Positions 16,910-50,230 of a stretch of 64,000 bases of DNA are shown in pieces. Position 1 is the first letter of the stretch. Every line of letters begins with the position of its first letter. The notes under the pieces are model-generated. The model saw nothing but the letters and a program-made list of their open reading frames with translations, did no database searches and was not told the DNA's origin. The DNA lies in NCBI GenBank assembly GCA_964609585.1, contig CAZSRA010000004.1, forward strand, positions 27,417-91,416. The letters run 5' to 3'. The translations under genes and the position numbers were made by a program. This DNA is from an uncultured Candidatus Saccharimonadales bacterium (GTDB lineage: Bacteria > Patescibacteriota > Saccharimonadia > UBA4664).

Positions 16910-16927
16910 CAAATTGAAGGAGTAACA

Positions 16928-31129: not shown

Positions 31130-31177
31130 GGGGTCGCGGCGGACGAAGTCTGCTGCGACCCCGTTTCGTTTCTTGTG
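31130..31177 (+). terminator. rho-independent terminator (GGGGTCGC...GCGACCCC stem + T-rich)
   Basis: ggggtcgcggcggacgaagtctgctgcgacccc gtttcgtttctt. Confidence 0.6.
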
Positions 31178-31220: not shown

Positions 31221-31736
31221 GTGTATGTGCCACAGGTAGACATAAAAAATAAGCGCTCTAAGAAGCCAATATTCGTGGGAGTGGGAGCTCTCGGCATTGT
31301 TGTGATTATCGTTGGCGGGGTGTTGTGGTATGTGGGCCATCCTGCGGTTACGACTCAGACTGTATTGACACAGGCGGCGGACAAAGAGTTTTCCGGTGAC
31401 GGAAAAGGTGCGATTGCGCAATTGGAGCAACAGTTGAGTCATGCGAAAACCAATGAAGACAAGGTGAATATCTACTTGGCTATTGGAGTCGCCTACGAAA
31501 ATGAGCATGATAGTAAATCGGCGCTGGCGGCATATCAGAAGGCGGGGGCGATTAGCGCAAGCTATGGGACAAACGATTCTATAGCCAGGGCAGCTGCGGA
31601 AACGGGTGATAAGCCAATGGCAATTGATTACTATAAGCGCAATCTTGCCTTGATAAACGAGGGTAAAGCCAAAGAGAGTAGCGGTGATGCTCCGACGATT
31701 GAGCAAGCGATTAAAGACCTGGGGGGTACCCCATGA
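31221..31736 (+). CDS. N-terminally membrane-anchored small protein with TPR-like helical C-terminus (171 aa); partner of secreted protein A
   Basis: N-terminus PQVDIKNKRSKKPIFVGVGALGIVVIIVGGVLW homologous to N-terminus of 33778 ORF; ATGA overlap with next gene. Confidence 0.5.
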   Translation: MYVPQVDIKNKRSKKPIFVGVGALGIVVIIVGGVLWYVGHPAVTTQTVLTQAADKEFSGDGKGAIAQLEQQLSHAKTNEDKVNIYLAIGVAYENEHDSKSALAAYQKAGAISASYGTNDSIARAAAETGDKPMAIDYYKRNLALINEGKAKESSGDAPTIEQAIKDLGGTP

Positions 31737-33667
31737 GGAGTCGTCTTGTAGTCGTAGCTGCGGTGGTGTTGTTTGCTATCGGGGTGGTAATCCCGGCCGG
31801 ATCTGCGGAAGCGGCGCCGTTTGCTCGAGCTGCAAATCACGGCTTTTTTACCAATCGATGTGATAACGGAGGCGGATCGGTCATAACGAGCGGTGTTCAC
31901 CCGACGGCCGCACCGTTGTACAACGGTAAGCCCTTCACTGCTAGCTTTATATCGCAGGTGCTTGGTTATCTGAGTGGTAGTGGTGGGAATAAGACGGGTG
32001 CTGAATTCCTGATTCTAACCATGCTCGGATATCCGGCTGGAACACCCAAGGCGACGGCGACCTTTGGGTTTGTTCAAACGAACTGGGTGAATTTGGTACA
32101 TGGTTATAGCGATAGAGGATGGATTCAGTGGAACGTCGCCTATAGTTTTACGTCTGATACATATTACCAAGGCGTGTATTCGTCGGTGGGTGGAATTTGT
32201 GACGGCATTGCTGGGTTCCCGGATGACGATGCTTGGTATTCACATTCGGCGACGGCTAATCCGGCGATTGTTTTTCACCAACCTGGGACAACTAGCTTCT
32301 ATGCCATACAGGAGTCGTGTGCAAATCCGCTCGGTGACTTTAATTTGCCGCCGTTGCCGATTCCAACGCCTGTTCCAAACTATAATGTGACTTTGTCGGC
32401 GGATACGAATGGTTCACCCTCCACGGTGGTGGCGGGGCAAAGCTATCGTATAGGCGTGGCAGTGAGCAATAGTGGGCCGGCGGCTTCGACCGTGGGCGAC
32501 ATTGAAGTGATGATGCCAGCAGCAGGCGTGGTGCAAGCTTGTGGGCCAACCTGTAATGACCCGGGCCAGAATGTGCTACTTTATGGTCCGACGGGCCCGG
32601 GAGGGCACAGTTACCGGGCGGCATCGACGATCCCGGGGACGGTCGGGCGCAACTGGGATTGGTCGGTGAATCCGCTGGGAGCAGGGGCGGGTGCCGGTAG
32701 TGTATTGAACTGGACGGTGGCACCGGGGACGCCAGTGGGGACGGTAATTACGTTTGATGTGTATTACTATAAGCAGAATTTGGCTGGCGGGGTGCAGCAT
32801 GTGACGGTAAGCTTCCGCGTGGTGTCGCAACGGACTCCGAGTATATCGGCTGCAAATAGCGACGTTCATGCAGGCGGTGGGCTGTGCGGGCAAGCATTGT
32901 CTGGCGGTAACGTGACGACGAGTCCGGGCGGAGCCTCATATGGCCAGTATGTAGTGTCGGCAACGGGCTCGATTAACAGTTTGTTTTCGAATAACGCCAG
33001 CAGTGGGGTCACGGATACGTTGAAGCTAGGCAATTTTGGCAGCTATGCTCAGGTATGTCGAGCGGATTTGTGGACGGCGGCTAAGGCGGGATGGCCGAGT
33101 GGGCCCGGTATTCATACCATTGGCGGATTGGGTGTCGCGTCGTTTGTGCTGGCGGGTAATGAAGGTGGGGTTTATTACTTCAACGGCACACACTTGAACC
33201 TGCACGGGGCGGTGGGTAATCCGATAGCTCCGGGCGTGCCGCCAGCTCCGGTGACGATTGTGACGCTCCAGCCGGGTGCAGTTGTCGAGATTGACGGCAA
33301 TATTACACTCAATAATACGGTGTATCCGCCGCACAGCGCGCCGTCGCTTGGGATTATTTCGGCGGGAGACATTTTGATTGATCCGGCGGTGACGCATGTG
33401 GATGCGTATTTGTTTTCTTCGGCAGGGACGATTGATACTTGTAACCCGATTGGGTCCTGTTCTACGCCCCAGTTGGTCGTGAACGGGTTTTTGATGGCCA
33501 AGAACATTTTGTTTAGTCGGGCGGGGGTCGTGAATACGAACGGCAATGCGGTGTCGGAAGCGATTAATCTGACGCCTCAAATTTACCTCAATCCGCCTAA
33601 ATATTTTGACGCGAGTGTGGATGATGTATTGCTCCAGGGGCAGGGTGAGCGAGCGCCTTTGTTCTGA
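31733..33667 (+). CDS. large secreted protein A (644 aa): signal peptide, variable N-terminal region (DUF11/Ig-like stretch), conserved ~270-aa C-terminal domain shared with 34208 ORF
   Basis: signal peptide MRSRLVVVAAVVLFAIGVVIPAGSAEA; C-terminal identity with paralog. Confidence 0.6.
   Translation: MRSRLVVVAAVVLFAIGVVIPAGSAEAAPFARAANHGFFTNRCDNGGGSVITSGVHPTAAPLYNGKPFTASFISQVLGYLSGSGGNKTGAEFLILTMLGYPAGTPKATATFGFVQTNWVNLVHGYSDRGWIQWNVAYSFTSDTYYQGVYSSVGGICDGIAGFPDDDAWYSHSATANPAIVFHQPGTTSFYAIQESCANPLGDFNLPPLPIPTPVPNYNVTLSADTNGSPSTVVAGQSYRIGVAVSNSGPAASTVGDIEVMMPAAGVVQACGPTCNDPGQNVLLYGPTGPGGHSYRAASTIPGTVGRNWDWSVNPLGAGAGAGSVLNWTVAPGTPVGTVITFDVYYYKQNLAGGVQHVTVSFRVVSQRTPSISAANSDVHAGGGLCGQALSGGNVTTSPGGASYGQYVVSATGSINSLFSNNASSGVTDTLKLGNFGSYAQVCRADLWTAAKAGWPSGPGIHTIGGLGVASFVLAGNEGGVYYFNGTHLNLHGAVGNPIAPGVPPAPVTIVTLQPGAVVEIDGNITLNNTVYPPHSAPSLGIISAGDILIDPAVTHVDAYLFSSAGTIDTCNPIGSCSTPQLVVNGFLMAKNILFSRAGVVNTNGNAVSEAINLTPQIYLNPPKYFDASVDDVLLQGQGERAPLF
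32858..33667 (+). repeat. ~0.8-kb segment duplicated at 35237..36064 (C-terminal domains of the two large secreted paralogs, high nucleotide identity)
   Basis: e.g. agcgacgttcatgcaggcggtgggctgtgcgggcaagcattgtctggcggtaacgtgacgacgagtccg vs agcgacattcatgcaggtggcgggctgtgcgggcaggcattgtctggcggtaatgtgacaacgagtccg. Confidence 0.85.
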
Positions 33668-33777
33668 TCGGTATGGGCTCCGAGGGGATGTGCAGCTGAA
33701 CTGAGAAGGGGGGTATAGAGGCTGCAAGGCCATAAAGGTTATGGTAAACTTACGTGAGTATAGTTTGTGAGTGTTAG

Positions 33778-34227
33778 ATGCCCCAAGTTGAAATAGTTCC
33801 TCATGGTTCGAAAAAGCCGGTGGCTACTATTGGAGCTGGTGTAGCTGGCGTGATTTTGGTGGCGATTGTGATAGCGGCAGTGATGTGGCTGAACCGGCCG
33901 AAGCCGAAGTCGACGCTACCGATAACTCGGGTAGTGACACCGAAGAACACCACTTATTACGCCGTAGTGAGTGCCGCAGATGTCGCAAAAGCTCACGAGA
34001 CTCTGGCGGCGGAGGGGACTGTGCAATCATTTGACGGGAAGACGATAGGGTTTTTAGCGAATGGTTCGAAGCAAACTTTGAAGCTTGTGGTCACGCCTTC
34101 TACTCGATACACAAAAGGTGCCAGTTATGCGCCGGCCCAGGCTAGCGGTTTGAAGGGTGGCTCGCGTGCTATTGTGACCTACAATTCGAGAACTAATGAA
34201 GTGATGAGTGTGGCTTATGATCTCTAG
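33778..34227 (+). CDS. N-terminally membrane-anchored small protein (149 aa); partner of secreted protein B
   Basis: PQVEIVPHGSKKPVATIGAGVAGVILVAIVIAAVMW similar to 31221 ORF N-terminus. Confidence 0.5.
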   Translation: MPQVEIVPHGSKKPVATIGAGVAGVILVAIVIAAVMWLNRPKPKSTLPITRVVTPKNTTYYAVVSAADVAKAHETLAAEGTVQSFDGKTIGFLANGSKQTLKLVVTPSTRYTKGASYAPAQASGLKGGSRAIVTYNSRTNEVMSVAYDL

Positions 34228-36064
34228 AAGGAGAACATGGCGACTTCGGCGGCCGATGACGATGGTGGTGGCGATAGCTGAGATCATATGGACGTTGGGA
34301 ATAGTGGTGCCGGCACAACCGGCATTTGCTGCGCAGGTGATTCAGAATTTGGCAACGAGCTCATCGCCTTCATTGCAGACACGATGGTATAGCTTGCGTG
34401 GATACGGCAGTATTCCGAAATGGGAACTGAACTGGCCGCAGCGAAGCGAGAATTGTCCATTTAACGGCAAGACCTATAAGACTTTGCCGTGGCAAGCTTA
34501 TGATCCGTTTAACTTATTTTTTAATGGCAACTACATGGATATCAGCAGTAACTGCGCTGATCGTTATACAGACGCGGGTACAGCGATTGGTGGGGGAGCC
34601 TGGATTTATCCAAGTGCACAAGGGGGCTGGGCAATGCCCGGGGGGCCACAATTTATAAATTGGCAGTCGGGGGCGTTTCCGGCTTTTTCGACGGTAATGA
34701 ATGGGTGTTTCAACGGTTCGCTGCCGGGCGGAAATGCAGCTGCGATTTGGGGAGCGGCTGGTCCTGATACGAGCGACCAGTTTTATGCGAGCGGCCCGAT
34801 TGGCACCATCCCCGGATTTGCTAATGGCTTATATTACGATAACTATCCTGGCGGTATACCTCAGGCTACAAAGCTGTTTTCAAATGGAGTAACGCTCGTA
34901 CGAGATAGCTTCAACTTGAACGCGACGGACATGATAAGGCTCAATCAGGGAAGCACCTCGTTGTTTATGCAAGCCTACGCGGATGACTGGTTGCAGGTTT
35001 ACCTTAACGGAGTTGCTGTGGGTGCATATACGACGACGACGGCGAGTAGAATGTCGCTTGATCTGACTGCGGTGAAGGGTTTGCTGGTGCCCGGGCAGAA
35101 TTGGATTGGGGTAATGGCTGCGGATAAGGCGGTGTTTGATGCGGCGGATCCGGGTGGTCGTGGGGCTGGGGTCTGCTACAACTTGCAGTACAAATACAGC
35201 GATGCCATTAGTAATCCGGGCTTACAGGGACTTAATAGCGACATTCATGCAGGTGGCGGGCTGTGCGGGCAGGCATTGTCTGGCGGTAATGTGACAACGA
35301 GTCCGAACAATCCGCCGAATCCTCCAGTGTCGTATGGGCAATATGTAGTGTCGGCAACGGGTTCGATTAATAATTTATTTTCGAATAATGCAAATAGTGG
35401 GGTGAATGACAAGTTAAAGGCGGGGAGCTCGGGAGGGTATGCGCAGGTGTGCCGAGCGGACTTATTGACGGCTGCTCGGGCAGGATGGCCGAGTGGGCCT
35501 GGGATTCATACCATTGGAGGTCTTGGAGCTGCATCTTTCAATCTGACAGGGACTGAGAGCGGGGTTTATTACTTTAATGGTACGCATTTGAACCTGCACG
35601 GGGCGGTGGGTAATCCGGTGGCTCCGGGTGTGCCGCCGAGCCCGGTGACGATTGTGACCTTGAATCCGGCGGCGGTGGTGGAGATCGATGGCAACATTAC
35701 GCTCAATAATACGGTGTATCCGCCGCATTCGGCGCCGTCGCTGGGGATTATTTCGGCATCGGATATTTTGATTGACCCGGCGGTGACGCATGTGGATGCT
35801 TATTTGTTTTCTTCGGCGGGGACGATTTATACGTGTAATGCAGCGCCGTCGGCTTGCTCGACGCCTTTACTAACGGTAAACGGGTTTTTGATGGCGAAAG
35901 ACCTTTCTTTTGGCCGGGTAGGGCCGTTTAACACTATGGGGTCGCCGATTACTGAGAGTATTGTGATGACGCCTCAAATCTACCTTAATCCGCCGAAGTA
36001 TTTTGATGTGAGTGTGGACGACGCTGTGTTGCAAGGGCAAGGTGAAAAACCCCCGCTATTTTAG
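34208..36064 (+). CDS. large secreted protein B (618 aa): signal peptide, distinct N-terminal region (PA14-like stretch AYADDWLQVYLNGVAVG), conserved C-terminal domain shared with protein A
   Basis: start uncertain (34208/34217/34256); overlaps preceding gene. Confidence 0.6.
   Translation: MWLMISRRRTWRLRRPMTMVVAIAEIIWTLGIVVPAQPAFAAQVIQNLATSSSPSLQTRWYSLRGYGSIPKWELNWPQRSENCPFNGKTYKTLPWQAYDPFNLFFNGNYMDISSNCADRYTDAGTAIGGGAWIYPSAQGGWAMPGGPQFINWQSGAFPAFSTVMNGCFNGSLPGGNAAAIWGAAGPDTSDQFYASGPIGTIPGFANGLYYDNYPGGIPQATKLFSNGVTLVRDSFNLNATDMIRLNQGSTSLFMQAYADDWLQVYLNGVAVGAYTTTTASRMSLDLTAVKGLLVPGQNWIGVMAADKAVFDAADPGGRGAGVCYNLQYKYSDAISNPGLQGLNSDIHAGGGLCGQALSGGNVTTSPNNPPNPPVSYGQYVVSATGSINNLFSNNANSGVNDKLKAGSSGGYAQVCRADLLTAARAGWPSGPGIHTIGGLGAASFNLTGTESGVYYFNGTHLNLHGAVGNPVAPGVPPSPVTIVTLNPAAVVEIDGNITLNNTVYPPHSAPSLGIISASDILIDPAVTHVDAYLFSSAGTIYTCNAAPSACSTPLLTVNGFLMAKDLSFGRVGPFNTMGSPITESIVMTPQIYLNPPKYFDVSVDDAVLQGQGEKPPLF
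35237..36064 (+). repeat. second copy of the ~0.8-kb duplicated C-terminal-domain segment
   Basis: see 32858..33667. Confidence 0.85.
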
Positions 36065-36121
36065 GGCGCGAGTATTTCGCGAGTATTTCGCTTACATAAT
36101 GGTTATGGTAGAATTTGGATC

Positions 36122-37162
36122 ATGGGACTTTTCGTAAAAGAAGCAGAATTTTTCGGACTAGACATTGGATCAACGGCGATTCGGCTGGTGCAGCTGCGAC
36201 GAGCAGGGGATCATCCGGCGCTGGTGGCTTATGGATCGGTGCCGGTGCCGTTAAATCTGACGTCGAGTGACTCGAAGCTGGATCAGGATAAGATCGTAGA
36301 GCTCGTGAAGCAAGTGGTGCATGAGAACCGGGTGGCTTTGAAGAATGTGGTAGTGGGGCTGTCGGCAAATAAGGTGTTTGCCACGGTCATAACGACACCG
36401 AAACTCGATAACGCCCAGCTTGCGAAGGCGATTCGATACCAGGCTGAGCAATATATTCCGATGGCGCTTGATCAGGTGAAGCTTGATTGGTCGGTGATAG
36501 ACCAGAGTAAAGATGGTAAGCAGCTCGAAGTGCTGCTTGTGGCGGCGCCAAATTCGGCGATTGACAAGTACGTGGGAATTTTGGAGAAGGCGGGACTTGA
36601 GCCGCTAGCCTTGGAGCCAAATGCAACGGCGGTGGCTAGGGCTTTGATTCCGGTGAACAACTTGGCGGTGGTGGTAGTGGATTTTGGATCGCTGGATTCG
36701 GATATCTCCATTGTATGGAACAACGGGCCACGGTTGATTCGTTCGGTGTCGGTGGGGAGTACTACGCTGGTGCGATCGGTGGCGCAGAATTTGGGACTCG
36801 ACGAGGTGCAGGCGAATCAATTTACCTTTAAATTTGGTCTGACGCAGTCGAAGCTTGAGGGCCAGGTGTTTAAGGCAATCAAGCCGACATTAGACAACTT
36901 GGTGTCGGAAGTGGATAAATCTACGAAGTACTTTTTGGGGCGATACCCAGACGTGAAACTGGAGAAGCTGGTGATAACGGGGGCGGCGTCGAGTTTGCCG
37001 GAGCTAGGTCCATTTTTGGCCAATTCAACGGGACTACCGGTAGAGTTTGGCAACGCATGGACCAACGTGTCGTATCCGTCGGCGCTGCAGGATAAACTGA
37101 TGGGACTTTCGGTGGAATATGCGGCGGCAGTCGGACTGGCCGGCCGGGGGTACATGGGATGA
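36122..37162 (+). CDS. pilM: type IV pilus assembly protein PilM (actin-like ATPase fold)
   Basis: 346-aa first gene of the PilM/N/O/B block; N-terminal FGLDIGSTAIRLVQL actin-fold ATPase motif typical of PilM/FtsA-like proteins. Confidence 0.85.
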   Translation: MGLFVKEAEFFGLDIGSTAIRLVQLRRAGDHPALVAYGSVPVPLNLTSSDSKLDQDKIVELVKQVVHENRVALKNVVVGLSANKVFATVITTPKLDNAQLAKAIRYQAEQYIPMALDQVKLDWSVIDQSKDGKQLEVLLVAAPNSAIDKYVGILEKAGLEPLALEPNATAVARALIPVNNLAVVVVDFGSLDSDISIVWNNGPRLIRSVSVGSTTLVRSVAQNLGLDEVQANQFTFKFGLTQSKLEGQVFKAIKPTLDNLVSEVDKSTKYFLGRYPDVKLEKLVITGAASSLPELGPFLANSTGLPVEFGNAWTNVSYPSALQDKLMGLSVEYAAAVGLAGRGYMG

Positions 37163-37749
37163 CAATGCTCATTAACCTTTTGCCGGATCTGCGTCAGGCT
37201 AAGCTAAAGGAGCGCCATCGTCGTCAATTGGTGACGGGCGTGTCGGTGACGGTGTGGATTGCCTGCGGAGCCATTGTGGCGCTGCTGTTTGTGTACATGG
37301 GCGGGCAAAAGGTGATTATTGCGACGACGACGAAGAGTGTGTCGGACAAAGAAGCGTCATTGCAGTCGATATCGGGTCTGGAGGATGCTTTAACGGCTAG
37401 CCAGCATTTGTCGAGCTTGTCGAGTTTGTATGCTAAACGCGTGTACATGAGTAAATTTTTTGATGTCTACATGCAGGCTAATCCCGCGACGGTAGCTCTG
37501 AGCTCGATGCAGATTGATTCATCGAATATCTTGACGATCCTCGGGACAGCTCCGAGCTATGCAGAGGTGGCAAAGCTAGCTCGTGCGCTCGAAGGGTCTA
37601 ACGTGACGGTGGGCGCGGGAGCGGCGGAGGCGAATGCGCCTTACTTTAGCAATGTAAGCATTCTGAGTCTTGATAACAGTGCTAAGACGGGCGTGAGTTT
37701 TACTATTAGCGCCACTTTGGCGGCAGGAGTAACCAGTGGCAGCAACTAA
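37159..37749 (+). CDS. pilN: type IV pilus assembly protein PilN
   Basis: N-terminal INLLP motif and TM helix; ATGA overlap with pilM. Confidence 0.7.
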   Translation: MTMLINLLPDLRQAKLKERHRRQLVTGVSVTVWIACGAIVALLFVYMGGQKVIIATTTKSVSDKEASLQSISGLEDALTASQHLSSLSSLYAKRVYMSKFFDVYMQANPATVALSSMQIDSSNILTILGTAPSYAEVAKLARALEGSNVTVGAGAAEANAPYFSNVSILSLDNSAKTGVSFTISATLAAGVTSGSN

Positions 37750-38380
37750 GACAACGGTTAAAGCAGAGAATTTATCAAATAATAATTTGATGATTGTGAT
37801 GCTGTTGATATCGCTTCTGGCGGTGGGCGTGTCGGTGCTTGTGGGCAAATCTTTGGTGACAACGATCGTACGCGATACAACAGTAGTGAAAAAGGAAAGC
37901 GCAGCCGATAAACAGCTTTCGTCCGATAAAGATGCGGCGCCGAAGCTGGTAGACGCATACGGGCAGCTCAATGACAAGACTAAACTTGTGGCAGACGCAT
38001 TGCCAACAGAGCCGGATTTTCCGAGCCTGATCGTGACACTTGAGAATATGGCAAAAACAGCGGGTGTGACGCTTAAAAGTGTGACACCTGCTCAAGCGGG
38101 TGCGTCGTCGGTGGATGCGTCGGCCGGGGCTACGGCCGCTGCTTCTACGGACACAAGTGTGGCGCCGACTCCTCAGAGCTATAAGTTTGGCATTAGTTTT
38201 AGTGGGACGTACGCTAGTTTGACAAAGTTTTTGACGGTTATAGAGACTTCGGCCCGGCCGATGCGGGTGCTCGATATGCAGCTCGCTGGTGGCGGAAGCG
38301 CTTTGAGCGGGCAGTTTGACGTCGAAACCTTCTATCAAGGTAAGGCTCAATTGCCCTTCGGTAAGGAGACGGTGAAATGA
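37736..38380 (+). CDS. pilO: type IV pilus assembly protein PilO-like
   Basis: single TM, coiled coil, position after pilN. Confidence 0.6.
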   Translation: MAATKTTVKAENLSNNNLMIVMLLISLLAVGVSVLVGKSLVTTIVRDTTVVKKESAADKQLSSDKDAAPKLVDAYGQLNDKTKLVADALPTEPDFPSLIVTLENMAKTAGVTLKSVTPAQAGASSVDASAGATAAASTDTSVAPTPQSYKFGISFSGTYASLTKFLTVIETSARPMRVLDMQLAGGGSALSGQFDVETFYQGKAQLPFGKETVK

Positions 38381-38631
38381 AACAAAAAGATATTATCTCT
38401 TTAGTGTTCGCAGTTGGGATTCTTTTGGTGGCCGGCTACATTGGCTATACGCAGCTTTTGCCAAAGCAGGCTACGGGTCCAACCACGGTGACCGTAGACA
38501 AGGTAGGGGTAATTCCTGATAGCTTGGACGCTTCGGGGCTTGCGGCCATTAATGATCCCACCAAGGTGGTGGATTTTAATGCGCCGGTGGATTTGTCGGG
38601 CTTGAACAATCAAGCACCGTTTGGTCCCTGA
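38377..38631 (+). CDS. small single-TM protein in pilus operon (PilP-analogue candidate)
   Basis: 84 aa, overlaps pilO stop, TM helix. Confidence 0.4.
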   Translation: MKQKDIISLVFAVGILLVAGYIGYTQLLPKQATGPTTVTVDKVGVIPDSLDASGLAAINDPTKVVDFNAPVDLSGLNNQAPFGP

Positions 38632-38653
38632 AGGAGTTTGATAATGGTTAAGT

Positions 38654-40438
38654 TTGCGAGGTCTGATGCTATCGGTTGAGAGCCAGCAGCGGATAGAAGA
38701 ACTTCTACTTGAGGGTAAACTGCTCAAGCCGGAAGATCTTGAGACGGCTAAAGTGGATGCGCTAAAGGCGTCTAAGCCGCTCATTGCCTACATTGCTGAA
38801 AAAAATTTGGTGGGCGAAGAGGATCTGACGCGGATTTCAGCGCAGGCTATGGGGGTGCCTTACGCAAATTTGAACGCGTTAACGGTACCAGATGACATTA
38901 CGAAGTTGCTCGCGAAAGAGACGGCCGAAACGTATCTGGCGGTGCCATTTGGCATGCAGCAGGGACGGTTGGCCGTGGGTATGCTCGACCCGACCAATAT
39001 CCAGGCTGTGGACTTTTTGAGCCGCAAGGTGGGACACAACATTACGGTGTATTTGGCGTCGCGGGGATCGATTGATCATGTGCTGGCGCAGTTCCATAGC
39101 GATGTGGCGGCGGATGTGGCGAGCGCGATGGATGTCGCGAGTGTGGACGATCACCCGAAGGTGGAGGCAAAGAATGCCAAGGGGCTGCAGAATTTGGTGC
39201 AGGATGCGCCGATTACGCGCGCCTTGAACGCGATTTTGGATTATGCGGCGCAGAGCCGGGCGAGTGATATTCACATTGAGCCGCGCGAGCATGAGCTGAA
39301 GATTCGTTACCGGATTGACGGTATTTTGCAGGAGACGATGACGCTACCGAAGAGCATTGAGCCGGCGCTGATTTCGCGCATTAAGATTTTGAGCAATTTG
39401 CGGATTGATGAGCACCGGATTCCGCAGGACGGGCAATTTCAGATTAGCTCGAATGGGCACGAGATTGACCTGCGTATTGCGATTTCGCCAGTGGTGTGGG
39501 GCGAGCAGGTGGTGGTGCGGCTTTTGGACAAGAGCGGGACAGTGCTGACGCTGGAGAGTCTGGGTTTTCGAGGCCGGGCGGCGCGACTGATTGATGAGGG
39601 AATTCATAAGCCGCATGGGATGACGCTTTCGACGGGGCCGACGGGTTCGGGAAAGAGTACGTCGCTGTACGCGATTGTGCAGGAACTCAAGGATGTGTCG
39701 ATCAACATTGTGACGCTGGAAGATCCGGTGGAGTACAAGATGGACGGGATTAATCAGATTCAGGTGAATAATGATGTGGGCCTGACGTTTGCGAGCGGGC
39801 TGCGGAGTATTTTGCGGCAGGATCCGAATGTGGTGCTGGTGGGGGAGATTCGCGATAAAGAGACGGCGGATCTGGCGGTGCAGGCGGCGCTGACGGGACA
39901 CGTGGTGCTTTCGACGATTCACACGAACTCGGCGGCCGGGGTGTTGCCGCGTATGCTCGACATGGGGATCGAGCCGTTTTTGATCGCGAGTACGATTAAT
40001 ACGGTGATTGGGCAGCGGCTGGTGCGAAAATTGTGCGAGAAATGCAAGGAATCATTTGAAACGAACGAGGCGCAGACAAAGTCGATTATGGCGACTTTGG
40101 GCGATGTGCTGCCGAAGACGAAGAGTGAGCTGGAACGGGTAAAGAAGGACGTGGGCTATGAGGTGGTGCCAACGGCCGACCAGAAGACGTTTACGGTGTA
40201 CAAGGCGGTGGGTTGCAAGGAGTGTGTGAAGGGGTACAAGGGGCGGATTGGTATTTATGAGGTGTTTGCCATGACGCCGGCGATGGAGAAATTGCTGCTT
40301 GAGCATTCGACGACGAGCGAGGTGCAGAATCAGGCATCGAAAGATGGCATGCTAACGATGAAGCAGGATGGGTACTTTAAGGCTTTGAATGCGCTGACGA
40401 CTTTGGAAGAGGTAGCGCGGGTGGCGGCGGACTTTTAG
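38654..40438 (+). CDS. pilB: type IV pilus assembly ATPase PilB (GspE family)
   Basis: Walker A GPTGSGKST, GspII_E N-domain, tetracysteine motif. Confidence 0.9.
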   Translation: MRGLMLSVESQQRIEELLLEGKLLKPEDLETAKVDALKASKPLIAYIAEKNLVGEEDLTRISAQAMGVPYANLNALTVPDDITKLLAKETAETYLAVPFGMQQGRLAVGMLDPTNIQAVDFLSRKVGHNITVYLASRGSIDHVLAQFHSDVAADVASAMDVASVDDHPKVEAKNAKGLQNLVQDAPITRALNAILDYAAQSRASDIHIEPREHELKIRYRIDGILQETMTLPKSIEPALISRIKILSNLRIDEHRIPQDGQFQISSNGHEIDLRIAISPVVWGEQVVVRLLDKSGTVLTLESLGFRGRAARLIDEGIHKPHGMTLSTGPTGSGKSTSLYAIVQELKDVSINIVTLEDPVEYKMDGINQIQVNNDVGLTFASGLRSILRQDPNVVLVGEIRDKETADLAVQAALTGHVVLSTIHTNSAAGVLPRMLDMGIEPFLIASTINTVIGQRLVRKLCEKCKESFETNEAQTKSIMATLGDVLPKTKSELERVKKDVGYEVVPTADQKTFTVYKAVGCKECVKGYKGRIGIYEVFAMTPAMEKLLLEHSTTSEVQNQASKDGMLTMKQDGYFKALNALTTLEEVARVAADF

Positions 40439-41167: not shown

Positions 41168-41215
41168 ACGCGAGCCTTCTTTCTTCGTCTGGGTTGTCAA
41201 AAATGGACGATTAAT

Positions 41216-42670: not shown

Positions 42671-43741
42671 GTGGAGAGAAGTGCCCTCAAAATTGAATTG
42701 ATGCTGGAGCAGGTGATTAAGTTTGATGCGTCGGACTTGCACCTTCAGGTGGGTCTGCCGCCGATGTTACGGGTGGATGGTTCACTCAAGCAGATTGAGG
42801 ACACGCCGGTACTTGAGCCTGCGGACGTAGAAAAGCTGGTATTTTCGATTTTGGACGATGATCAAAAAGAGATTTTGATCAAAGACAAGGAAGTGGATTT
42901 TTCGTTTGCGTTTGGAAACTATGGGCGATTCCGGGTAAATGCGTTTCACGAGCGCGGGAATGTGGCGGCAGCGCTGCGCCTGATTCCGAGCAAGGTGCGG
43001 ACATTAGAAGAACTCCAGATGCCGAAGGTGTTGCAGGACTTTACGAAGTTTCCGCGCGGGTTGGTGCTGGTGACGGGGCCGACGGGCTCGGGTAAATCGA
43101 CGACGCTCGCGGCTATGGTGGACAAGATTAATGCTGAGCAATCGAAGCACATTTTGACGATTGAGGACCCGATTGAGTACGCGCATAGTTCGAAAAAATC
43201 GATCGTGGTGCAGCGGGAAATTCACTACGATACGTACTCGTTTGCGGCAGCTCTACGCTCGAGCTTGCGGCAAGACCCGGATGTGGTGTTGATCGGTGAG
43301 ATGCGCGATCTTGAGACGATTGCGGCGGCAGTGACGATCGCGGAGACGGGGCACTTGGTGCTGGCCACCCTGCACACGAACAGCGCGGCTCAGAGTATTG
43401 ATCGTATGATCGACGTATTTCCGCCTCACCAGCAGCAGCAGATTCGGGTGCAGCTGGCAGGTATGCTTCAGGGGATTTGTTCGCAGCGGTTGGTGCCGGG
43501 GATTGGCGGTGGCCGCGTGATAGCGGCTGAGATTTTGGTGGCGACAGGTGCGGTGCGTAACATTATTCGTGAGGGCAAGACGCATCAGCTGGACGCAGTG
43601 ATTCAGACGGGCGCGGAATACGGCATGCAGAGCATGGACCGGCAGCTGGTGGCGCTCGTGCAAGAGGGCAAGATTACCTATGATGAGGCCAAGAATTTTG
43701 CGATTGATTTGCAAGAGCTCGACCGTTTAATGCGAGGTTAG
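42671..43741 (+). CDS. pilT: twitching motility ATPase PilT
   Basis: Walker A GPTGSGKSTT, 356 aa; alternative start 42701. Confidence 0.9.
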   Translation: MERSALKIELMLEQVIKFDASDLHLQVGLPPMLRVDGSLKQIEDTPVLEPADVEKLVFSILDDDQKEILIKDKEVDFSFAFGNYGRFRVNAFHERGNVAAALRLIPSKVRTLEELQMPKVLQDFTKFPRGLVLVTGPTGSGKSTTLAAMVDKINAEQSKHILTIEDPIEYAHSSKKSIVVQREIHYDTYSFAAALRSSLRQDPDVVLIGEMRDLETIAAAVTIAETGHLVLATLHTNSAAQSIDRMIDVFPPHQQQQIRVQLAGMLQGICSQRLVPGIGGGRVIAAEILVATGAVRNIIREGKTHQLDAVIQTGAEYGMQSMDRQLVALVQEGKITYDEAKNFAIDLQELDRLMRG

Positions 43742-43880
43742 GAAGAGAAAGCATTTACATGGCACATTACTTCATCGACATTTACGCTCCGCACTCATCG
43801 TACGTTAAAGTACGCTTCGTTTGCGGTACGCATCTCTCCTTGTACTGCACTCATGTAAATGCTTCCTCGGAGGCTAAGTC

Positions 43881-45107
43881 ATGATTACGTTTGTTTATAC
43901 GGCGCATAAGACCGAGACGGGCGAGACAGTAAAAGCAGAAGTGCAGGCCGAAAATGAGCGAGCGGCGGCGAAGCTGCTGGTGGCTCAGGGGTTGTTTCCG
44001 ATTTCGATTGATCCGAAGGATGGTGCCGGGTTTTTAGCCAAATCTGGGTTTGGAACTCGGGTGGGCGCCAAGGACCGAGTGATTTTTACGCGGCAGCTGT
44101 CTACGCTGATTAATGCGGGATTGCCGTTGACGCAGTCGCTGCGGACGGTGAGTGAGCAGGTGCAAAATAAAACTTTGCACGATGTATCGGTGGCGGTGGT
44201 ATCGAGCGTGGAATCGGGGACGAGTTTGAGTCAATCGTTTGCTCAATACCCGAAGATTTTTAGTGACATTTATGTGAGCTTGGTGGCGGCGGGGGAGTCG
44301 TCGGGGTCGCTGGATAAATCTTTGGAACGGATCGCAATGCAACAGGAGAAGGATGCGGCGATCGTGGGCAAGATTCGCAGTGCGCTGATTTATCCGATTA
44401 TTGTGCTTTTGGTGATTGCGGCGGTGCTAGTGTTTATGCTTACGACGGTGTTGCCGCAGGTGGGTGGGCTGTACAAGGATTTGCATAAGCCGCTGCCGAC
44501 TTTGACGCAGATTTTGCTTGCGATTTCGAATTTTATTATGCACTTTTGGTTCATTGTGATAATCGGGTTGGTGGCTGGCGGGTTTGCGCTGAAGAATTAT
44601 ATACAAACGGAGCAAGGGCGGGCGGTAGCAGACCGAGTGAAGTTGGATGTGCCGCTATTTGGGAAGATTTATCGCAAGGTCTACATGGCGCGGTTTGCTA
44701 GGACGCTGGGGACGATGCTGCAGAGTGGTATCCCGATGCTGGAGGCGCTGCGGATTGTGAAGAATGCCATTGATAACGTGCATGTGGAAGCGGTGCTAGA
44801 GAAGAGTATGCAAGGGGTGAAGGGCGGCAAGGCGCTGTCGACGACGCTGGAGAATGAAGAAACGTTTATAAAGCTGGTGCCGCAGATGATTAAGATTGGC
44901 GAGCAGTCGGGGGCGATTGATTCTATGCTGGACCGGGTGGCGACGTACTACGAGAATGAGGTGGACGAAGAGGTGAAGAACATTTCGACGACGATTGAGC
45001 CGCTTTTGATGGTGGTGCTGGGTGTGACGGTGGGCGGTGTGATTGCGGCGATTTTGATGCCGGTGTACTCGTTGGTGGGGAACGGGTCGGTGGATAATTT
45101 GAAGTAG
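43881..45107 (+). CDS. pilC: type IV pilus platform protein PilC (GspF family)
   Basis: two T2SSF repeats, 408 aa. Confidence 0.9.
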   Translation: MITFVYTAHKTETGETVKAEVQAENERAAAKLLVAQGLFPISIDPKDGAGFLAKSGFGTRVGAKDRVIFTRQLSTLINAGLPLTQSLRTVSEQVQNKTLHDVSVAVVSSVESGTSLSQSFAQYPKIFSDIYVSLVAAGESSGSLDKSLERIAMQQEKDAAIVGKIRSALIYPIIVLLVIAAVLVFMLTTVLPQVGGLYKDLHKPLPTLTQILLAISNFIMHFWFIVIIGLVAGGFALKNYIQTEQGRAVADRVKLDVPLFGKIYRKVYMARFARTLGTMLQSGIPMLEALRIVKNAIDNVHVEAVLEKSMQGVKGGKALSTTLENEETFIKLVPQMIKIGEQSGAIDSMLDRVATYYENEVDEEVKNISTTIEPLLMVVLGVTVGGVIAAILMPVYSLVGNGSVDNLK

Positions 45108-45137
45108 GTTGGGATTGAGGGAATAATTGCGCCTTGT

Positions 45138-45236
45138 GGGCGGTTCGGGGATTGCTCCCCGAACCGCCCGGTTGGTGTGACTCGGGCCTAGGGTCCGAGT
45201 CACAGGACGGGGGTCCGGCTGAGGGTTACCAGCCGG
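45138..45236. terminator. three consecutive hairpins between convergent pilC and PD40-SGNH gene (14-bp, 9-bp, 7-bp stems)
   Basis: gggcggttcgggga ttgc tccccgaaccgccc; gtgactcgg...ccgagtcac; ccggctg...cagccgg. Confidence 0.55.
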
Positions 45237-47583
45237 TACCGGTGAGGACGGAGATCGCGGTTGCCGCGATCTTGGACTGACCGGTGGTGCTGCCGCTGCC
45301 CGGGGTGGGGTGCGGGTAGCCGTAGATCCGGTTGGTGGAGATGTAGCCACCTGCGACCGGGCTCGTGCCCAGGGCGGAGGTGGCGGTGAGGTCAACGTAC
45401 TTGACGTTGGTTCCGCTCACGTAGGTGTGGTCGCCGTTGAGCTCGACTACCACGCTGTGGATGCCCTTGGTGCTGCCGGAGTCGGCGTAGCAGGAGTTGC
45501 CAGTGCTATCGACGACATTCGGGTAGCCGACGTTCAGAATCCTGACACCCGGCGAGGCAGCGGCTGCCACCGTCTCCATGCCTTGCAGGTTGCTCTGGAT
45601 GAGCCCGGAAACGGTGAAGCCGGTGCCGGGGTCGGGAACCGTGAGGTTGTCGTAGACGGAGTTGGCGTCCGGGCAGTTGGTGATGCCGCTGGTGACGGCC
45701 CAGGGTTTGACGCTGGGCGTGTTCCAGTTCGCGAGGTACCAGTTGGCCAGGACGTCAGTCCAGTTGGTGTCGTCGGCGCCGCCGGTCATGCTGACGACGT
45801 TCCAGGAGTCGTACCGCGTGTATAACGCGAGACTGAGCTTTGCGGATTGGGTGTCTCCGCTGGCCCAGGCTGCGGTTCCCGGGGTCGCCAGGTCGCTGCC
45901 GAAACTACTGGTTGGGGCTCCGCTGCGAGCGATCAGGTAGGCCGGCATCCCATCGGAGCCGGTTGCTCCCATACTGATTTGCCAGACTGAAGGGGCGTGC
46001 GTGGAGCTGTTGTAGCTGGCCACGGCCGTGTTCACCCAGGATGCGGTCGCGTCGTTGGGCGTGGGGTCGTTGCTGGGGAGGTACGAAGCACCATCGGCGC
46101 AACTGATGGTCTTGCCGAGGTACTTCACTGCGGCGTCCGCTTGAGTGGGACACTGTGGCTGATCCGATGCCTCGTGGTGGCCGCTGCTGAACGAGTCGCC
46201 GACGGCAGCCCAGATGGGGGCCTTCGGTGTGTGTACCCTGAGAGGTGTGCTCCAGCTACCGGCGGTTCCGCCGGTGCTCACTGGGCGCACCCACAGGTAC
46301 CAGTCTTGGTCGGGCTGCGTGCCGCCGCCCCAGGTGGTGCCGGTACCCGAGTACTTGCCAAGGAAGCTGATCGGTCCCTTCTTCGTGCTCATGTTGGTGA
46401 TGGTTTGGAGGTAGCTCGTGTTCGGAGCGGTCGTGCTCGACGTCGACCATCCGAGGTCGAACCGCTGGTTGCCGGTGGCCGAGAGACTTACCGTCACCTG
46501 GCGGGTGTACGGTGCGTCGCTGGCCGACGGGGCACTGAACGTCGCGGTGCTATTGGACGGCGGGGCTGGGGGCCAGGCCGCGTTGACGAGGGAGAACCAC
46601 GACTGGACATGGCCGCTGGAGGCGGTCAGGTCGGTGGCAGTGCCACCGCTCGAGCTGATGCTGAACACGTCTTCGGAGCCGCTCGTCGTGTTGTTGCTGG
46701 CGAAATACACCGTGCTGCCGTTGGCCGACACGCGCGGCAGTTCGTCAGTGCGCGAGTAGGACTCCGTCGTCAGGGCGTTGCGGGTCACGGTTGTCGTGCT
46801 GAATCCGTTTGACGAACCAAAGTACGAAAGGCCGCCTCCGTTCTCATCACTGTTGAAGTAGATCCGCGATCCATCCGGCGACCAGGCAGGCTCGACATCG
46901 TTGTATGAGCCAAGCGCCGAAGTGAGGCGATGCTGGTTGGTGCCGTCTGCGTTCATGATCCAGATCTGTGTCTGGTTCGTGCCGCTCGGGTCGACGAGGT
47001 CGTAGGTGAGCTTGGTGCCGTCCGGTGACCACGCGACGTCGAGATCGCTCACGTTGTTGGTCGTGAGCTGAACCACACCGCCGGTGCCGTCCGACCTGAC
47101 CTTGTAGACGTTGGTGTTGATCCCGCCCGGCACGGAGTAGCGCCGGGTGAACGCGATCCAGGAACCGTCCGGCGACCAGTGCGGGTTGTCCTCGGTGAAG
47201 TTGTCCGTCGAACCGGCCTGGGTGAGGGTTGTGATACCCGATCCGTCCGAGTTGGCGAGGTAGATCCCCGAGTAGCTGGTTGGGTAGCCAACGTAGGCGA
47301 CCCGCGACCCGTCTGGGGAGACGTCCGGCTGGCTCGGCGATTGTGTGCTCTCGATGATCGTCGAGACCGTACCGGTGGAGCCATCGCGCTTGGCGATGAT
47401 GCCGTTTCCACCGGAATCCATACCGTCGTACATGATGTCGCCAGCGGCGACATCGGCGTGAGCCATCGGCGCCGTGGCGACGATGTTGAAGACCGGGAGT
47501 CCGATGACGGTTCCGATCGCTAGCGCGAAGGCGAGCAAGATTGCTCGCAGTCCGCTGCTAGGTGGTGTCGGTCGTTGAGACAC
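45226..47583 (-). CDS. secreted PD40 (TolB-like) beta-propeller + SGNH/GDSL hydrolase fusion protein (785 aa), ~65% GC
   Basis: GTG start with SD AAAGGAGT; signal peptide; four SPDGS(R/W/K)(V/I/L)x(Y/F) PD40 repeats; GDSL block IWAAVGDSFSSG. Confidence 0.6.
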   Translation of the reverse strand: MSQRPTPPSSGLRAILLAFALAIGTVIGLPVFNIVATAPMAHADVAAGDIMYDGMDSGGNGIIAKRDGSTGTVSTIIESTQSPSQPDVSPDGSRVAYVGYPTSYSGIYLANSDGSGITTLTQAGSTDNFTEDNPHWSPDGSWIAFTRRYSVPGGINTNVYKVRSDGTGGVVQLTTNNVSDLDVAWSPDGTKLTYDLVDPSGTNQTQIWIMNADGTNQHRLTSALGSYNDVEPAWSPDGSRIYFNSDENGGGLSYFGSSNGFSTTTVTRNALTTESYSRTDELPRVSANGSTVYFASNNTTSGSEDVFSISSSGGTATDLTASSGHVQSWFSLVNAAWPPAPPSNSTATFSAPSASDAPYTRQVTVSLSATGNQRFDLGWSTSSTTAPNTSYLQTITNMSTKKGPISFLGKYSGTGTTWGGGTQPDQDWYLWVRPVSTGGTAGSWSTPLRVHTPKAPIWAAVGDSFSSGHHEASDQPQCPTQADAAVKYLGKTISCADGASYLPSNDPTPNDATASWVNTAVASYNSSTHAPSVWQISMGATGSDGMPAYLIARSGAPTSSFGSDLATPGTAAWASGDTQSAKLSLALYTRYDSWNVVSMTGGADDTNWTDVLANWYLANWNTPSVKPWAVTSGITNCPDANSVYDNLTVPDPGTGFTVSGLIQSNLQGMETVAAAASPGVRILNVGYPNVVDSTGNSCYADSGSTKGIHSVVVELNGDHTYVSGTNVKYVDLTATSALGTSPVAGGYISTNRIYGYPHPTPGSGSTTGQSKIAATAISVLTGTGW

Positions 47584-47714
47584 GACTTACTCCTTTGGCT
47601 GTCAAGCGACAAACAATCTCGGCCCTTAGCCGAGAGAGGCCCGCTGCGAGGTACAGCGGACTAAGCGAATATGCGGGATTAAAGAGGATATGTAAATGAT
47701 TTTTGGTCTAGTAA

Positions 47715-47744
47715 TTGACAGTCCCAAAGCATAAGTGGGATACT
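47715..47744 (+). promoter_or_regulatory. predicted promoter TTGACA-N18-GATACT (TG-extended) upstream of major pilin
   Basis: read directly from sequence. Confidence 0.35.
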
Positions 47745-47790
47745 GTATCCAAGTTGTAATATTTCAACACACTAACGAAAGGTGATTTAG

Positions 47791-48273: not shown

Positions 48274-48301
48274 TCCAAAAAACGGATTCGCGATTTCCAA
48301 A

Positions 48302-48328
48302 AAAAAGAGGCCTTCGGGCCTCTTTTTA
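48302..48328 (+). terminator. rho-independent terminator after pilin gene
   Basis: agaggcc ttcg ggcctct ttttt. Confidence 0.75.
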
Positions 48329-48342
48329 GGTATAATCTTCTT

Positions 48343-49555: not shown

Positions 49556-49564
49556 TAAGTACTT

Positions 49565-50209: not shown

Positions 50210-50230
50210 CCCCGGCGTGTCCATGGTATA

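What the first reader, a model, noticed from the sequence alone, without database searches (positions are those of the whole stretch)
31221..36064. Tandem two-gene modules (small membrane-anchored protein + large secreted protein) directly upstream of the T4P operon; the large proteins share a conserved C-terminal domain with divergent N-terminal halves
Module 1 is 31221..31736 plus 31733..33667. Module 2 is 33778..34227 plus 34208..36064. The small proteins share an N-terminal PQV(D/E)I..SKKP + TM-helix signature. The large proteins have Sec signal peptides and unrelated N-terminal ~350-aa regions: a DUF11/Ig-like stretch in A and a PA14-like stretch AYADDWLQVYLNGVAVG in B. They share a nearly identical ~270-aa C-terminal domain (SDVHAGGGLCGQALSGGNVTTSP ... 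GVYYFNGTHLNLHGAVGNP ... VYPPHSAPSLGIIS ... VTHVDAYLFSSAGTI). A variable binding domain on a conserved anchor, next to pilM, suggests pilus-associated adhesins analogous in logic to PilY1, or polymorphic surface proteins. Start/stop overlaps suggest translational coupling within each module.
Basis: partly seen in the sequence, partly recalled or inferred. Interest (0 to 1): 0.72.

Follow-up and report, generated by a model that had tools for sequence, protein, structure and literature searches.

The report
Modular surface proteins heading Saccharibacteria pilus operon
Two tandem gene pairs at the head of a soil Saccharibacteria type IV pilus operon each encode a small membrane-anchored protein and a large exported protein with an exchangeable, adhesin-like front half on a shared ice-binding-protein/ComZ-like beta-solenoid; this is a widespread but undescribed family and a plausible host-recognition accessory of the pilus.

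Summary
Two small-plus-large gene pairs lie at 31221-33667 and 33778-36064, directly upstream of pilM. The large proteins share a 282-aa C-terminal domain (78% identity, not "nearly identical") behind unrelated N-terminal halves.

The family is large (408 cluster representatives at E<=1e-10) and always C-terminal. In 19 of 26 assessable loci the gene sits 45-265 nt upstream of pilM.

The small partners carry an N-terminal MPQV(D/E)-basic-TM anchor. Their type follows the large protein's N-terminal type, and in some genomes the anchor is fused to the large protein.

Evolution is mosaic. The heads are exchanged between genomes, while the C-domains track the resident genome.

The pair is absent between ychF and pilM in cultured Southlakia epibionticum, so it is probably accessory rather than core machinery.

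Best reading (confidence 0.5): pilus-associated modular adhesins that follow PilY1 logic but are not PilY1 members. Pilus attachment itself is inferred, not shown.

The parts
31130..31162 (+). Strong terminator-like hairpin (15-bp stem, then T-rich tail) ending the upstream unit. It marks the 5' boundary of the module and pil transcription unit.
   Evidence: It is by far the strongest + strand terminator-like hairpin between 30000 and pilM; only weaker 6-7 bp stems lie inside the genes, including one at 35728 within large B.
31221..31736 (+). Small protein A (171 aa; probable true start GTG 31227 giving MPQVDIKNKRSKKP). Short basic cytoplasmic N-terminus, one TM helix, then a TPR-like helical ectodomain.
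   Evidence: TPR Pfam matches are below the gathering scores (E ~2e-4). Homologues precede the large gene in L001-L006, L008, L009, L013, L017, L020, L026.
31733..31813 (+). Large protein A signal peptide (aa 1-27: MRSR, hydrophobic helix, AEA|AP).
   Evidence: Sequence. The model has helix 3-19 followed by a low-confidence linker. A27 is nearly invariant in 50 homologues.
31820..32347 (+). Large A domain 1 (aa 30-205): alpha+beta domain of unassigned fold. Family motifs are GR....GYF.N, TMLG and CANP.G.
   Evidence: AF2 blocks covering aa 31-200 mostly 85-96, two blocks in the 60s. Conserved columns. Homologous N regions in 48 of ~124 representatives. No Pfam hit, and no PDB fold match among the top-listed hits.
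32375..32827 (+). Large A domain 2 (aa 215-365): Ig-like beta-sandwich (DUF11/CARDB-like).
32828..33622 (+). Large A C-terminal domain (aa 366-630): triangular right-handed beta-solenoid shared with large B.
33623..33667 (+). Large A C-terminal tail (aa 631-644 plus stop): predicted disordered, ending in the conserved GQGERAPLF-COOH.
   Evidence: pLDDT <50. G-E-[RK]-x-P-L-[FY] at the extreme C-terminus in 146 of 166 family sequences.
33731..33751 (+). 21-nt element CATAAAGGTTATGGTAAACTT upstream of small B, repeated (86%) upstream of pilM at 36095-36115. It is part of the duplicated unit and a possible promoter or 5'-UTR element.
33778..34227 (+). Small protein B (149 aa): MPQVEIVPHGSKKP, one TM helix, then a ~100-aa non-TPR ectodomain.
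   Evidence: Orthologues precede B-type large genes in L013 (57%) and L014 (31%).
34208..35206 (+). Large B signal peptide and B-type N region (aa 1-333). Contains a galactose-binding-like jelly roll around aa 224-304 (nt 34877-35119; ADDWLQVYLNG motif).
   Evidence: Relatives are P0073 (74%), P0076 (46%), P0019, P0142 and P0140.
35207..36064 (+). Large B C-terminal beta-solenoid domain and tail (aa 334-618; ...GQGEKPPLF-COOH).
   Evidence: The domain junction (35234-35305 vs 32855-32926) is the best conserved DNA stretch between the paralogues, at 92%.
36122..40438 (+). Context: pilM (36122-37162), pilN (37159-37749), pilO (37736-38380), an 84-aa TM protein (38377-38631) and pilB (38654-40438).
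   Evidence: NCBIfam and Pfam.
42671..52409 (+). Context: pilT (42671), pilC (43881), pilins (47791, 48343), prepilin peptidase (48764), and four minor-pilin-like genes (49565, 50231, 50779, 51870). No PilY1-like gene lies among them.

Best explanation
The region holds two copies of a conserved accessory module of Saccharimonadia type IV pilus loci. Each module has two genes.

(i) A small N-in, single-pass membrane protein. It has a conserved cytoplasmic MPQV(D/E)-basic N-terminus and a type-specific ectodomain.

(ii) A translationally coupled, Sec-exported large protein in two parts. The front half is a type-specific, adhesin-like head. In A it is an alpha+beta domain plus an Ig-like domain. 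In B it includes a galactose-binding-like jelly roll. The back half is a common beta-solenoid of the ice-binding-protein/ComZ type, ending in a conserved free tail, GE[RK]xPL[FY]-COOH.

Proposed mechanism:
- The solenoid and tail are the common docking part. They attach the protein to the pilus system, either to the minor-pilin tip complex (as PilY1 does, or as the ComZ and cyanobacterial PilX solenoids sit at the tip) or to the outer face of PilN/PilO.
- The heads bind different ligands on host cells, probably cell-wall glycans for B.
- The small partner holds or matures its cognate head at the membrane near the machine.

Shown: gene structure, fold prediction, family size, synteny, partner/head co-variation and mosaic evolution. 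Inferred: export, pilus attachment, ligand binding and the role of the tail.
For: 1. Synteny. The large gene lies 45-265 nt upstream of pilM in 19 of 26 assessable loci. These include members with only ~25-30% C-domain identity. No strong terminator lies between the modules and pilM, whereas a strong one lies upstream at 31130.

3. Heads look like adhesin parts: Ig/DUF11 and a sugar-binding-like jelly roll.

4. Modularity:
- Large B N region vs P0073: 74% identity. Their C-domains: 46%. Large B C-domain vs the co-resident large A C-domain: 78%.
- The breakpoint falls at the domain junction, around residue 340-360.
- In L013 the two heads are unrelated but the two C-domains are 100% identical in DNA over ~250 codons.
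- The junction is the most conserved DNA stretch between the paralogues in the window, at 92%.

5. The small partner's type follows the head type, not the C-domain. The 4-nt overlaps are conserved. The MPxV-TM anchor is fused directly to the large protein in L003, L007, L010 and six representatives.

6. Rates. Against the closest relative L001 (pilM 92%, pilB 90%), small A is 32%, the A head 31% and the C-domain 75% identical. The parts expected to face the host are the fastest-evolving in the locus.

7. The module is dispensable for the pilus itself. S. epibionticum has ychF 12 nt from pilM and an essential T4P. Copy number is 0, 1 or 2.
Against: - No direct evidence of pilus association.
- The proteins lack any pilin domain or prepilin signal.
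- They are encoded ~13 kb from the minor pilin genes (49565-52409), not among them.
- Seven of 26 loci, including L008 and L011, have the module away from pil genes.
- Similarity to ComZ and ice-binding proteins is structural only. There is no sequence-level match to any PDB chain or to Pfam DUF3494. Beta-solenoids recur in many unrelated surface proteins.
- Domain 1 of large A has no assigned fold and could be enzymatic.
- The identical C-domains in L013 could be an assembly artefact.
- Loci were found through motif-based scans and some are near-duplicates, so the 19/26 figure is not an unbiased frequency.
Confidence: 0.5

Rival explanations
1. Pilus-independent cell-surface adhesins or wall proteins. 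The large protein is exported and held on the cell surface by its small membrane-anchored partner, or by the fused anchor. Co-location with pil genes reflects co-regulation for host attachment, not physical association with the filament.
For: - The anchor is fused directly to the large protein in several genomes, which fits a cell-bound protein.
- Modules exist away from pil genes.
- There is no pilin domain.
- The Cell 2023 Tn-seq study infers several non-pilus adhesins acting after T4P contact (PMC10633639).
Against: - Gene position immediately upstream of pilM is retained down to ~25% C-domain identity, which is more than co-regulation usually preserves.
- The conserved free C-terminal tail and the genome-tracking C-domain suggest a specific resident partner.
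- The fused-anchor forms carry an AxA-like site after the TM segment (APKASA|LG) and may be cleaved.
Confidence: 0.25
2. A structural component of the monoderm T4P machine. The solenoid would act as a tip plug or primer, or as an envelope-crossing collar, and the heads would be secondary.
For: - Operon position next to the alignment genes pilMNO.
- C-domain divergence runs parallel to PilN/PilO and the 84-aa protein.
- The tail resembles the conserved C-terminus of the 84-aa protein encoded after pilO.
- A plug role has been proposed for cyanobacterial PilX solenoids.
Against: - It is absent from the ychF-pilM junction of S. epibionticum, whose T4P is functional and essential. TM7x locus one, as described, has no room for it.
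- Copy number and heads vary, and unlinked copies exist.
Confidence: 0.12
3. Secreted glycan-active enzymes, such as beta-helix lyases or hydrolases with carbohydrate-binding modules. They would remodel host or self envelope polysaccharide to let the pilus or cell reach the host.
For: - The B head matches GH2-type sugar-binding modules.
- Domain 1 of A has invariant D, N, C and W residues of unknown role.
Against: - There is no Pfam or NCBIfam catalytic family.
- No conserved acidic pair typical of lyases or hydrolases was identified.
- The domain is absent from viral contigs, where depolymerase tailspikes would be expected.
Confidence: 0.08

Closest known systems
PilY1 / PilC tip-associated adhesins of Gram-negative type IVa pili
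   Same: Sec signal peptide rather than a prepilin signal. Large non-pilin protein. Variable N-terminal adhesin region on a conserved C-terminal domain. Paralogues with different heads in one genome, as in Myxococcus (own knowledge). Encoded within T4P gene clusters.
   Different: The C-domain here is a beta-solenoid, not the seven-bladed PilY1 beta-propeller, and has no sequence or Pfam relationship. It is encoded upstream of pilM rather than among the minor pilins. It has a dedicated small membrane partner and a conserved C-terminal tail. The organism is a monoderm.
ComZ (Thermus thermophilus, PDB 6qvi) and solenoid-bearing cyanobacterial PilX/HpsA minor pilins
   Different: In those proteins the solenoid is inserted into a pilin fold with an N-terminal alpha1 helix. 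Here it is the C-terminal domain of a Sec-exported, non-pilin protein. There is no sequence-level similarity. DNA binding is unknown here.
Ice-binding protein fold, type 1 (DUF3494, PF11999)
   Different: No Pfam DUF3494 match at E<=1 or in 50 homologues at E<=0.01. Only a short helix is modelled where IBPs have a long flanking alpha-helix. Ice binding is not expected.
Tapirins of Caldicellulosiruptor (PDB 4wa0, 6n2b, 6n2c)
   Different: Much weaker structural match. In tapirins the beta-helix is the ligand-binding part. There is no small partner gene, no conserved tail and no shared sequence.
PilX1/PilX2 of Nanosynbacter lyticus TM7x
   Same: Saccharibacterial T4P-linked proteins with lectin-like accessory domains, without PilD signals, proposed as tip adhesins (PMC11623550).
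   Different: Those are described as pilin-fold proteins with C-terminal jelly-roll or beta-propeller domains. Here the order is reversed (head first, common solenoid last) and there is no pilin fold.

Membership tests
PilY1/PilC (PF05567) | C-terminal PilY1 beta-propeller domain | tested here: not met
   No Pfam or NCBIfam hit. The AF2 model of the C-domain is a beta-solenoid.
PilY1/PilC (PF05567) | Encoded in the minor-pilin operon (fimU-pilVWXY1E type) | tested here: not met
   The modules lie upstream of pilM. The minor-pilin-like genes are at 49565-52409 with no large non-pilin gene among them.
PilY1/PilC (PF05567) | Sec-type (not prepilin) signal peptide, with a variable N region on a conserved C region | tested here: met
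   Sequence inspection and heuristic. Mosaic identity tables.
PilY1/PilC (PF05567) | Physical association with the minor-pilin tip complex | not testable with these tools
   Needs complex prediction or experiment.
ComZ / solenoid-bearing PilX tip pilins | Type IV pilin N-terminal helix and pilin fold | tested here: not met
   The N-terminus has no G|F(T/S)LIE-type motif, unlike the window's own pilins. The hydrophobic helix is only ~17 aa and is followed by AEA|A.
ComZ / solenoid-bearing PilX tip pilins | IBP-like triangular beta-solenoid | tested here: met
ComZ / solenoid-bearing PilX tip pilins | Sequence homology | tested here: not met
   Profile searches of PDB sequences found nothing.
Ice-binding protein / DUF3494 (PF11999) | Match to the Pfam model | tested here: not met
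   No hit at E<=1 for either large protein, and none among 50 homologues at E<=0.01.
Ice-binding protein / DUF3494 (PF11999) | Right-handed triangular beta-helix fold | tested here: met
Ice-binding protein / DUF3494 (PF11999) | Long alpha-helix packed along the solenoid | tested here: inconclusive
   Only a short helix (aa 446-452) is modelled, and that part has moderate confidence (pLDDT 58-69).
PA14 domain (large B head) | Match to Pfam PA14 | tested here: not met
   No PA14 hit at E<=1 in large B or 5 relatives. Instead BetaGal_ABD2 (3 of 6) and Glyco_hydro_2_N (1.5e-5, 1 of 6).
DUF11 / CARDB-like Ig domain (large A middle) | Match to Pfam DUF11, with a beta-sandwich fold | tested here: inconclusive
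TPR proteins (small A ectodomain) | Pfam TPR match above the gathering score | tested here: inconclusive
   Five TPR models hit at E 2e-4 to 2e-3, all below their cut-offs. Similar weak hits occur in the partners in L011 and L013.

The most novel reading that the evidence does not exclude
Environmental Saccharibacteria may use a previously unrecognised class of pilus-docked host-recognition proteins. In this reading a Sec-exported protein attaches to the type IV pilus tip or base through an IBP/ComZ-like solenoid and a free C-terminal GE[RK]xPL[FY] peptide. Its host-binding head, together with a cognate MPQV-anchored membrane chaperone, is swapped between genomes as a cassette by recombination at the conserved head/solenoid junction. 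This would make it a host-range determinant for epibiotic ultrasmall bacteria.
Probability: 0.27. Interest if true: 0.82.

Novelty: new variant of a known kind. Interest (0 to 1): 0.62.

Why it matters
How ultrasmall epibiotic Saccharibacteria recognise their host bacteria is an open question. Type IV pili are the only appendage so far shown to matter, and the tip adhesins proposed for the cultured oral strains (PilX1, PilX2) are not conserved.

This module is a large family with no Pfam, NCBIfam or source annotation. It is fixed at the head of the pilus operon in soil and other environmental lineages. It is absent between ychF and pilM in S. epibionticum, and TM7x locus one, as described, has no room for it.

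Its features are those expected of a host-specificity determinant:
- exchangeable heads on a genome-specific docking domain;
- a cognate membrane partner for each head type;
- fast evolution relative to the pilus machinery.

It also adds a third, independent context in which an ice-binding-type solenoid is tied to a type IV pilus, after Thermus ComZ and cyanobacterial PilX. Here the solenoid is on a non-pilin protein.

If the docking idea is right, the conserved C-terminal peptide and the MPQV N-terminal motif would be two new short targeting signals in Patescibacteria.

Tried and rejected
- Pfam and NCBIfam on all four proteins: nothing for the large proteins, only sub-threshold TPR for small A.
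- Sequence-profile searches of PDB with three alignments: no hits.
- Foldseek against PDB with the full-length model: only Ig-domain hits (integrin legs, Gram-positive pilins). Nothing for domain 1.
- The AlphaFold database library was unavailable, so no UniProt-named structural neighbours were obtained and TM7x or S. epibionticum orthologues could not be sought by fold.
- Word-indexed protein search is poorly sensitive for this family: 8, 17 and 1 hits, against 2127 by exhaustive HMMER.
- TPR-clamp idea: I considered that the small TPR protein binds the conserved C-terminal tail, as TPR clamps do. I rejected it as the main idea because the small protein's type follows the head type, not the shared tail. 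Small B is not TPR, and fused-anchor forms have no TPR.
- Recent gene conversion in the window: rejected. DNA identity is 75% and third-position identity 54%. Conversion does fit L013, at 100% DNA identity.
- Phage origin or tail-fibre reading: no relatives in viral contigs.
- Invertible or phase-variable element: no convincing inverted repeats flank the modules.
- S. epibionticum supplementary tables have no 'ice-binding', 'DUF3494' or 'ComZ' annotation. This does not prove the family is absent elsewhere in that genome.
- A literature search for Patescibacteria, pilus and solenoid found no paper.
Full report
**1. Observation**

- small A, 31221-31736
- large A, 31733-33667 (644 aa)
- small B, 33778-34227 (149 aa)
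- large B, 34208-36064 (618 aa)

pilM starts at 36122.

The large proteins align only over their last 282 residues, at 78% identity (E 6e-146). Their first ~335-365 residues give no significant alignment. At DNA level the shared part is 75% identical, with 54% identity at third codon positions. It is therefore an old duplication kept by selection, not a recent copy.

The small proteins share only their first ~37 residues. These comprise an extreme N-terminal PQV(D/E) motif, a basic stretch and one hydrophobic helix. By comparison with homologues that begin MPQV..., the true start of small A is probably GTG 31227, which has AGGTG four bases upstream.

The small A stop and large A start overlap as ATGA. 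Large B overlaps small B by 11-20 nt.

A strong terminator-like hairpin lies at 31130-31162. No comparably strong one lies between the modules and pilM, so the modules probably head the pil transcription unit.

**2. Organism and surroundings**

The window carries a complete type IV pilus (T4P) cluster:
- pilM, pilN, pilO, an 84-aa TM protein and pilB
- pilT and pilC
- two pilins and the prepilin peptidase
- four minor-pilin-like genes

The closest loci in public genomes are all Candidatus Saccharimonadia or Patescibacteria metagenome-assembled genomes. The nearest come from soil and rhizosphere metagenomes.

**3. What the large proteins are**

Neither large protein matches any Pfam or NCBIfam model. 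Every source calls the relatives 'hypothetical protein'.

An exhaustive profile search with the C-domain gives the following:
- 2127 cluster representatives at E<=1e-3
- 408 at E<=1e-10
- 125 at E<=1e-30

In the 150 listed hits the domain is at the C-terminal end of proteins mostly 600-1000 aa long (full range to 1250 aa).

An AlphaFold2 model of large A with a 50-sequence alignment has a mean pLDDT of 81. It shows:
- a signal-peptide helix (aa 3-19);
- an alpha+beta domain (aa 30-205);
- an Ig-like sandwich (aa 215-365);
- a beta-solenoid (aa 366-630);
- a disordered tail (aa 631-644).

The resemblance is structural only. No PDB chain or DUF3494 model is matched by sequence.

Domain 1 has conserved motifs (GR....GYF.N, TMLG, CANP.G). 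No fold match for it appeared among the top-listed hits.

The B-type head is a second, rarer family with five relatives among the 150 listed representatives. It contains a galactose-binding-like jelly roll (BetaGal_ABD2 in 3 of 6; Glyco_hydro_2_N at 1.5e-5 in 1 of 6). No PA14 match was found.

The extreme C-terminus is G-E-[RK]-x-P-L-[FY] in 146 of 166 family sequences.

**4. Synteny**

I compared the window proteins with 29 related loci.

Adjacent to pilM: the C-domain gene is followed by pilM within 45-265 nt in 19 of the 26 loci that have enough downstream sequence. These are L001-L007, L009, L010, L012, L013, L015, L016, L017, L019, L020, L021, L028 and L029. The set includes members with only ~25% C-domain identity (L028, L029) and a distant representative, P0122 (E 1e-32).

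Typical gene order:
1. ychF (minus strand)
2. one or two [small + large] modules
3. pilM, pilN, pilO and the 84-aa gene
4. pilB, pilT and pilC
5. pilins
6. pilD

Away from pil genes: seven loci have the module elsewhere. L008 sits among HAD, FemAB and LigD genes. L011 has two tandem modules in a genome that also has a pil-linked copy, L010.

Absent: in the cultured Southlakia epibionticum, ychF (SEML1_0103) ends 12 nt from pilM (SEML1_0104), and the T4P genes are essential (PMC10633639 supplement). TM7x locus one, as described, has no room for the module either. The module is therefore accessory, with 0, 1 or 2 copies. It is not core machinery.

No relatives were found in viral contigs.

**5. 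The small partner**

In nearly every locus a 145-200-aa gene precedes the large gene with a 4-nt overlap. Its product begins MP[QRKH][VI], followed by basic residues and one TM helix.

Its ectodomain type follows the head type:
- TPR-like partners go with A-type heads (sub-threshold Pfam TPR in the window, L011 and L013).
- A ~100-aa non-TPR domain goes with B-type heads. Small B is 57% identical to the L013 partner and 31% to the L014 partner.

In L003, L007, L010 and six representatives, the same MPxV-basic-TM segment is fused directly to the N-terminus of the large protein. This Rosetta-stone pattern argues that the small and large proteins act together at the membrane.

**6. Mosaic evolution**

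- The large B head is 74% identical to that of P0073 (L013), but their C-domains are only 46% identical. The large B C-domain is 78% identical to that of the co-resident large A.
- Along the window-versus-L013 alignment, identity drops from ~72% to ~45-50% around residue 340-360, which is the domain junction.
- In L013 the module order is reversed (B, then A, then pilM). The two unrelated heads carry C-domains that are 100% identical in DNA over ~250 codons. This is either gene conversion or an assembly artefact.
- In the window, the junction (NSD[VI]HAGGGLCGQALSGGNVTTSP) is the best-conserved DNA stretch between the paralogues, at 92% over 72 nt.
- Other two-module genomes show less homogenisation: 56% in L003 and 48% in L005.
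- Against the closest relative L001 (pilM 92%, pilB 90%, pilN/pilO ~62%), small A is 32%, the A head 31% and the C-domain 75% identical.

The unit that is exchanged or diverges fastest is therefore [small gene + head]. The C-domain tracks the resident genome at about the rate of PilN/PilO.

**7. Mechanism**

The best-supported reading is a T4P-associated modular adhesin system.
- The common solenoid and tail dock the protein to a genome-specific partner in the pilus system.
- The heads bind different ligands on host cells.
- The small partner holds or matures its cognate head at the membrane.

Membership in PilY1/PilC fails on the defining beta-propeller and on gene context. Membership in the ComZ/PilX group fails on the pilin fold.

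Whether the protein rides the pilus tip, sits at the pilus base or stays on the cell surface cannot be decided with these tools. I put 0.5 on pilus-associated adhesin, of which about 0.27 is a true tip-docked host-range determinant. I put 0.25 on pilus-independent surface adhesin, 0.12 on a machine component or plug, and 0.08 on a glycan-active enzyme.

**8. Novelty and verdict**

I found no paper describing this module. The family has no domain annotation.

It is a new variant of a known kind: a non-pilin, T4P-linked modular adhesin. It has an unusual docking fold, a dedicated partner gene and two conserved terminal motifs.

**Caveats**

- The loci were found by motif-based scans and include near-duplicates.
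- Signal peptides were not run through a dedicated predictor.
- Domain 1 has no assigned fold.
- All functional statements are inferences.

Noticed in passing
window 38377-38631 (84-aa gene after pilO); homologues in L001-L007, L009, L010, L012, L013: This small TM protein ends in a conserved DL[TS]GLGNxxPFG[PQ]-COOH in 12 loci. The pattern G-x-G-[EN]-x-x-P-[LF] near a free C-terminus resembles the large proteins' tail GQGE[RK]xPLF, so both tails might bind the same site. In S. epibionticum the equivalent gene (SEML1_0107) is essential.
   Followed up: partly
window 33731-33751 and 36095-36115: A 21-nt element, CATAA(A/T)GGTTATGGTA(A/G)A(C/A)TT, lies upstream of small B and again just upstream of pilM, with an exact 10-mer GGTTATGGTA in both. 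The spacing matches the module duplication, so the downstream intergenic region (a possible promoter or leader) was duplicated along with the C-domain.
   Followed up: partly
window 36068-36089: A tandem 11-nt direct repeat, GCGAGTATTTC x2, lies between the large B stop and pilM.
   Followed up: no
window 40553-41200 (-) and 41371-42012 (-): Two weakly paralogous minus-strand ORFs (215 and 213 aa) with signal or lipoprotein-like N-termini interrupt the pil cluster between pilB and pilT. This stretch has raised GC (0.615, against ~0.52-0.54 in the four flanking 2-kb windows). In L003, L004, L005, L007, L012, L028 and L029, pilB and pilT are adjacent, so this looks like an insertion.
   Followed up: partly
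window 45226-47583 (-): A 785-aa PD40/WD40-like beta-propeller protein on the minus strand lies between pilC and the major pilin gene. In related loci pilC is followed directly by the pilin.
   Followed up: no
window 1-64000: GC skew is strongly positive in every 2-kb window (0.13-0.36), and most long ORFs that look like genes are on the + strand. This is an unusually large strand compositional asymmetry, of the kind reported for some CPR genomes.
   Followed up: no
window 30203-31114 (+): A 303-aa ORF between ychF and the first module has no Pfam or NCBIfam match and no counterpart in L001-L011. In L026 the module follows ychF directly. It is followed by the strong terminator at 31130-31162.
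   Followed up: partly
L011 8211-12491: A second, pil-unlinked locus in the same MAG as L010 carries two tandem modules. The second large gene is short (378 aa) but keeps the conserved C-terminal tail. Further downstream a 603-aa pectate-lyase-like beta-helix protein (16337-18148) is encoded.
   Followed up: partly
window 50779-51876: The PilX-like minor pilin is large (365 aa) and has no sequence similarity to the solenoid domain (tblastn of the C-domain finds only the two module copies in the window). Its extra domain was not modelled.
   Followed up: no
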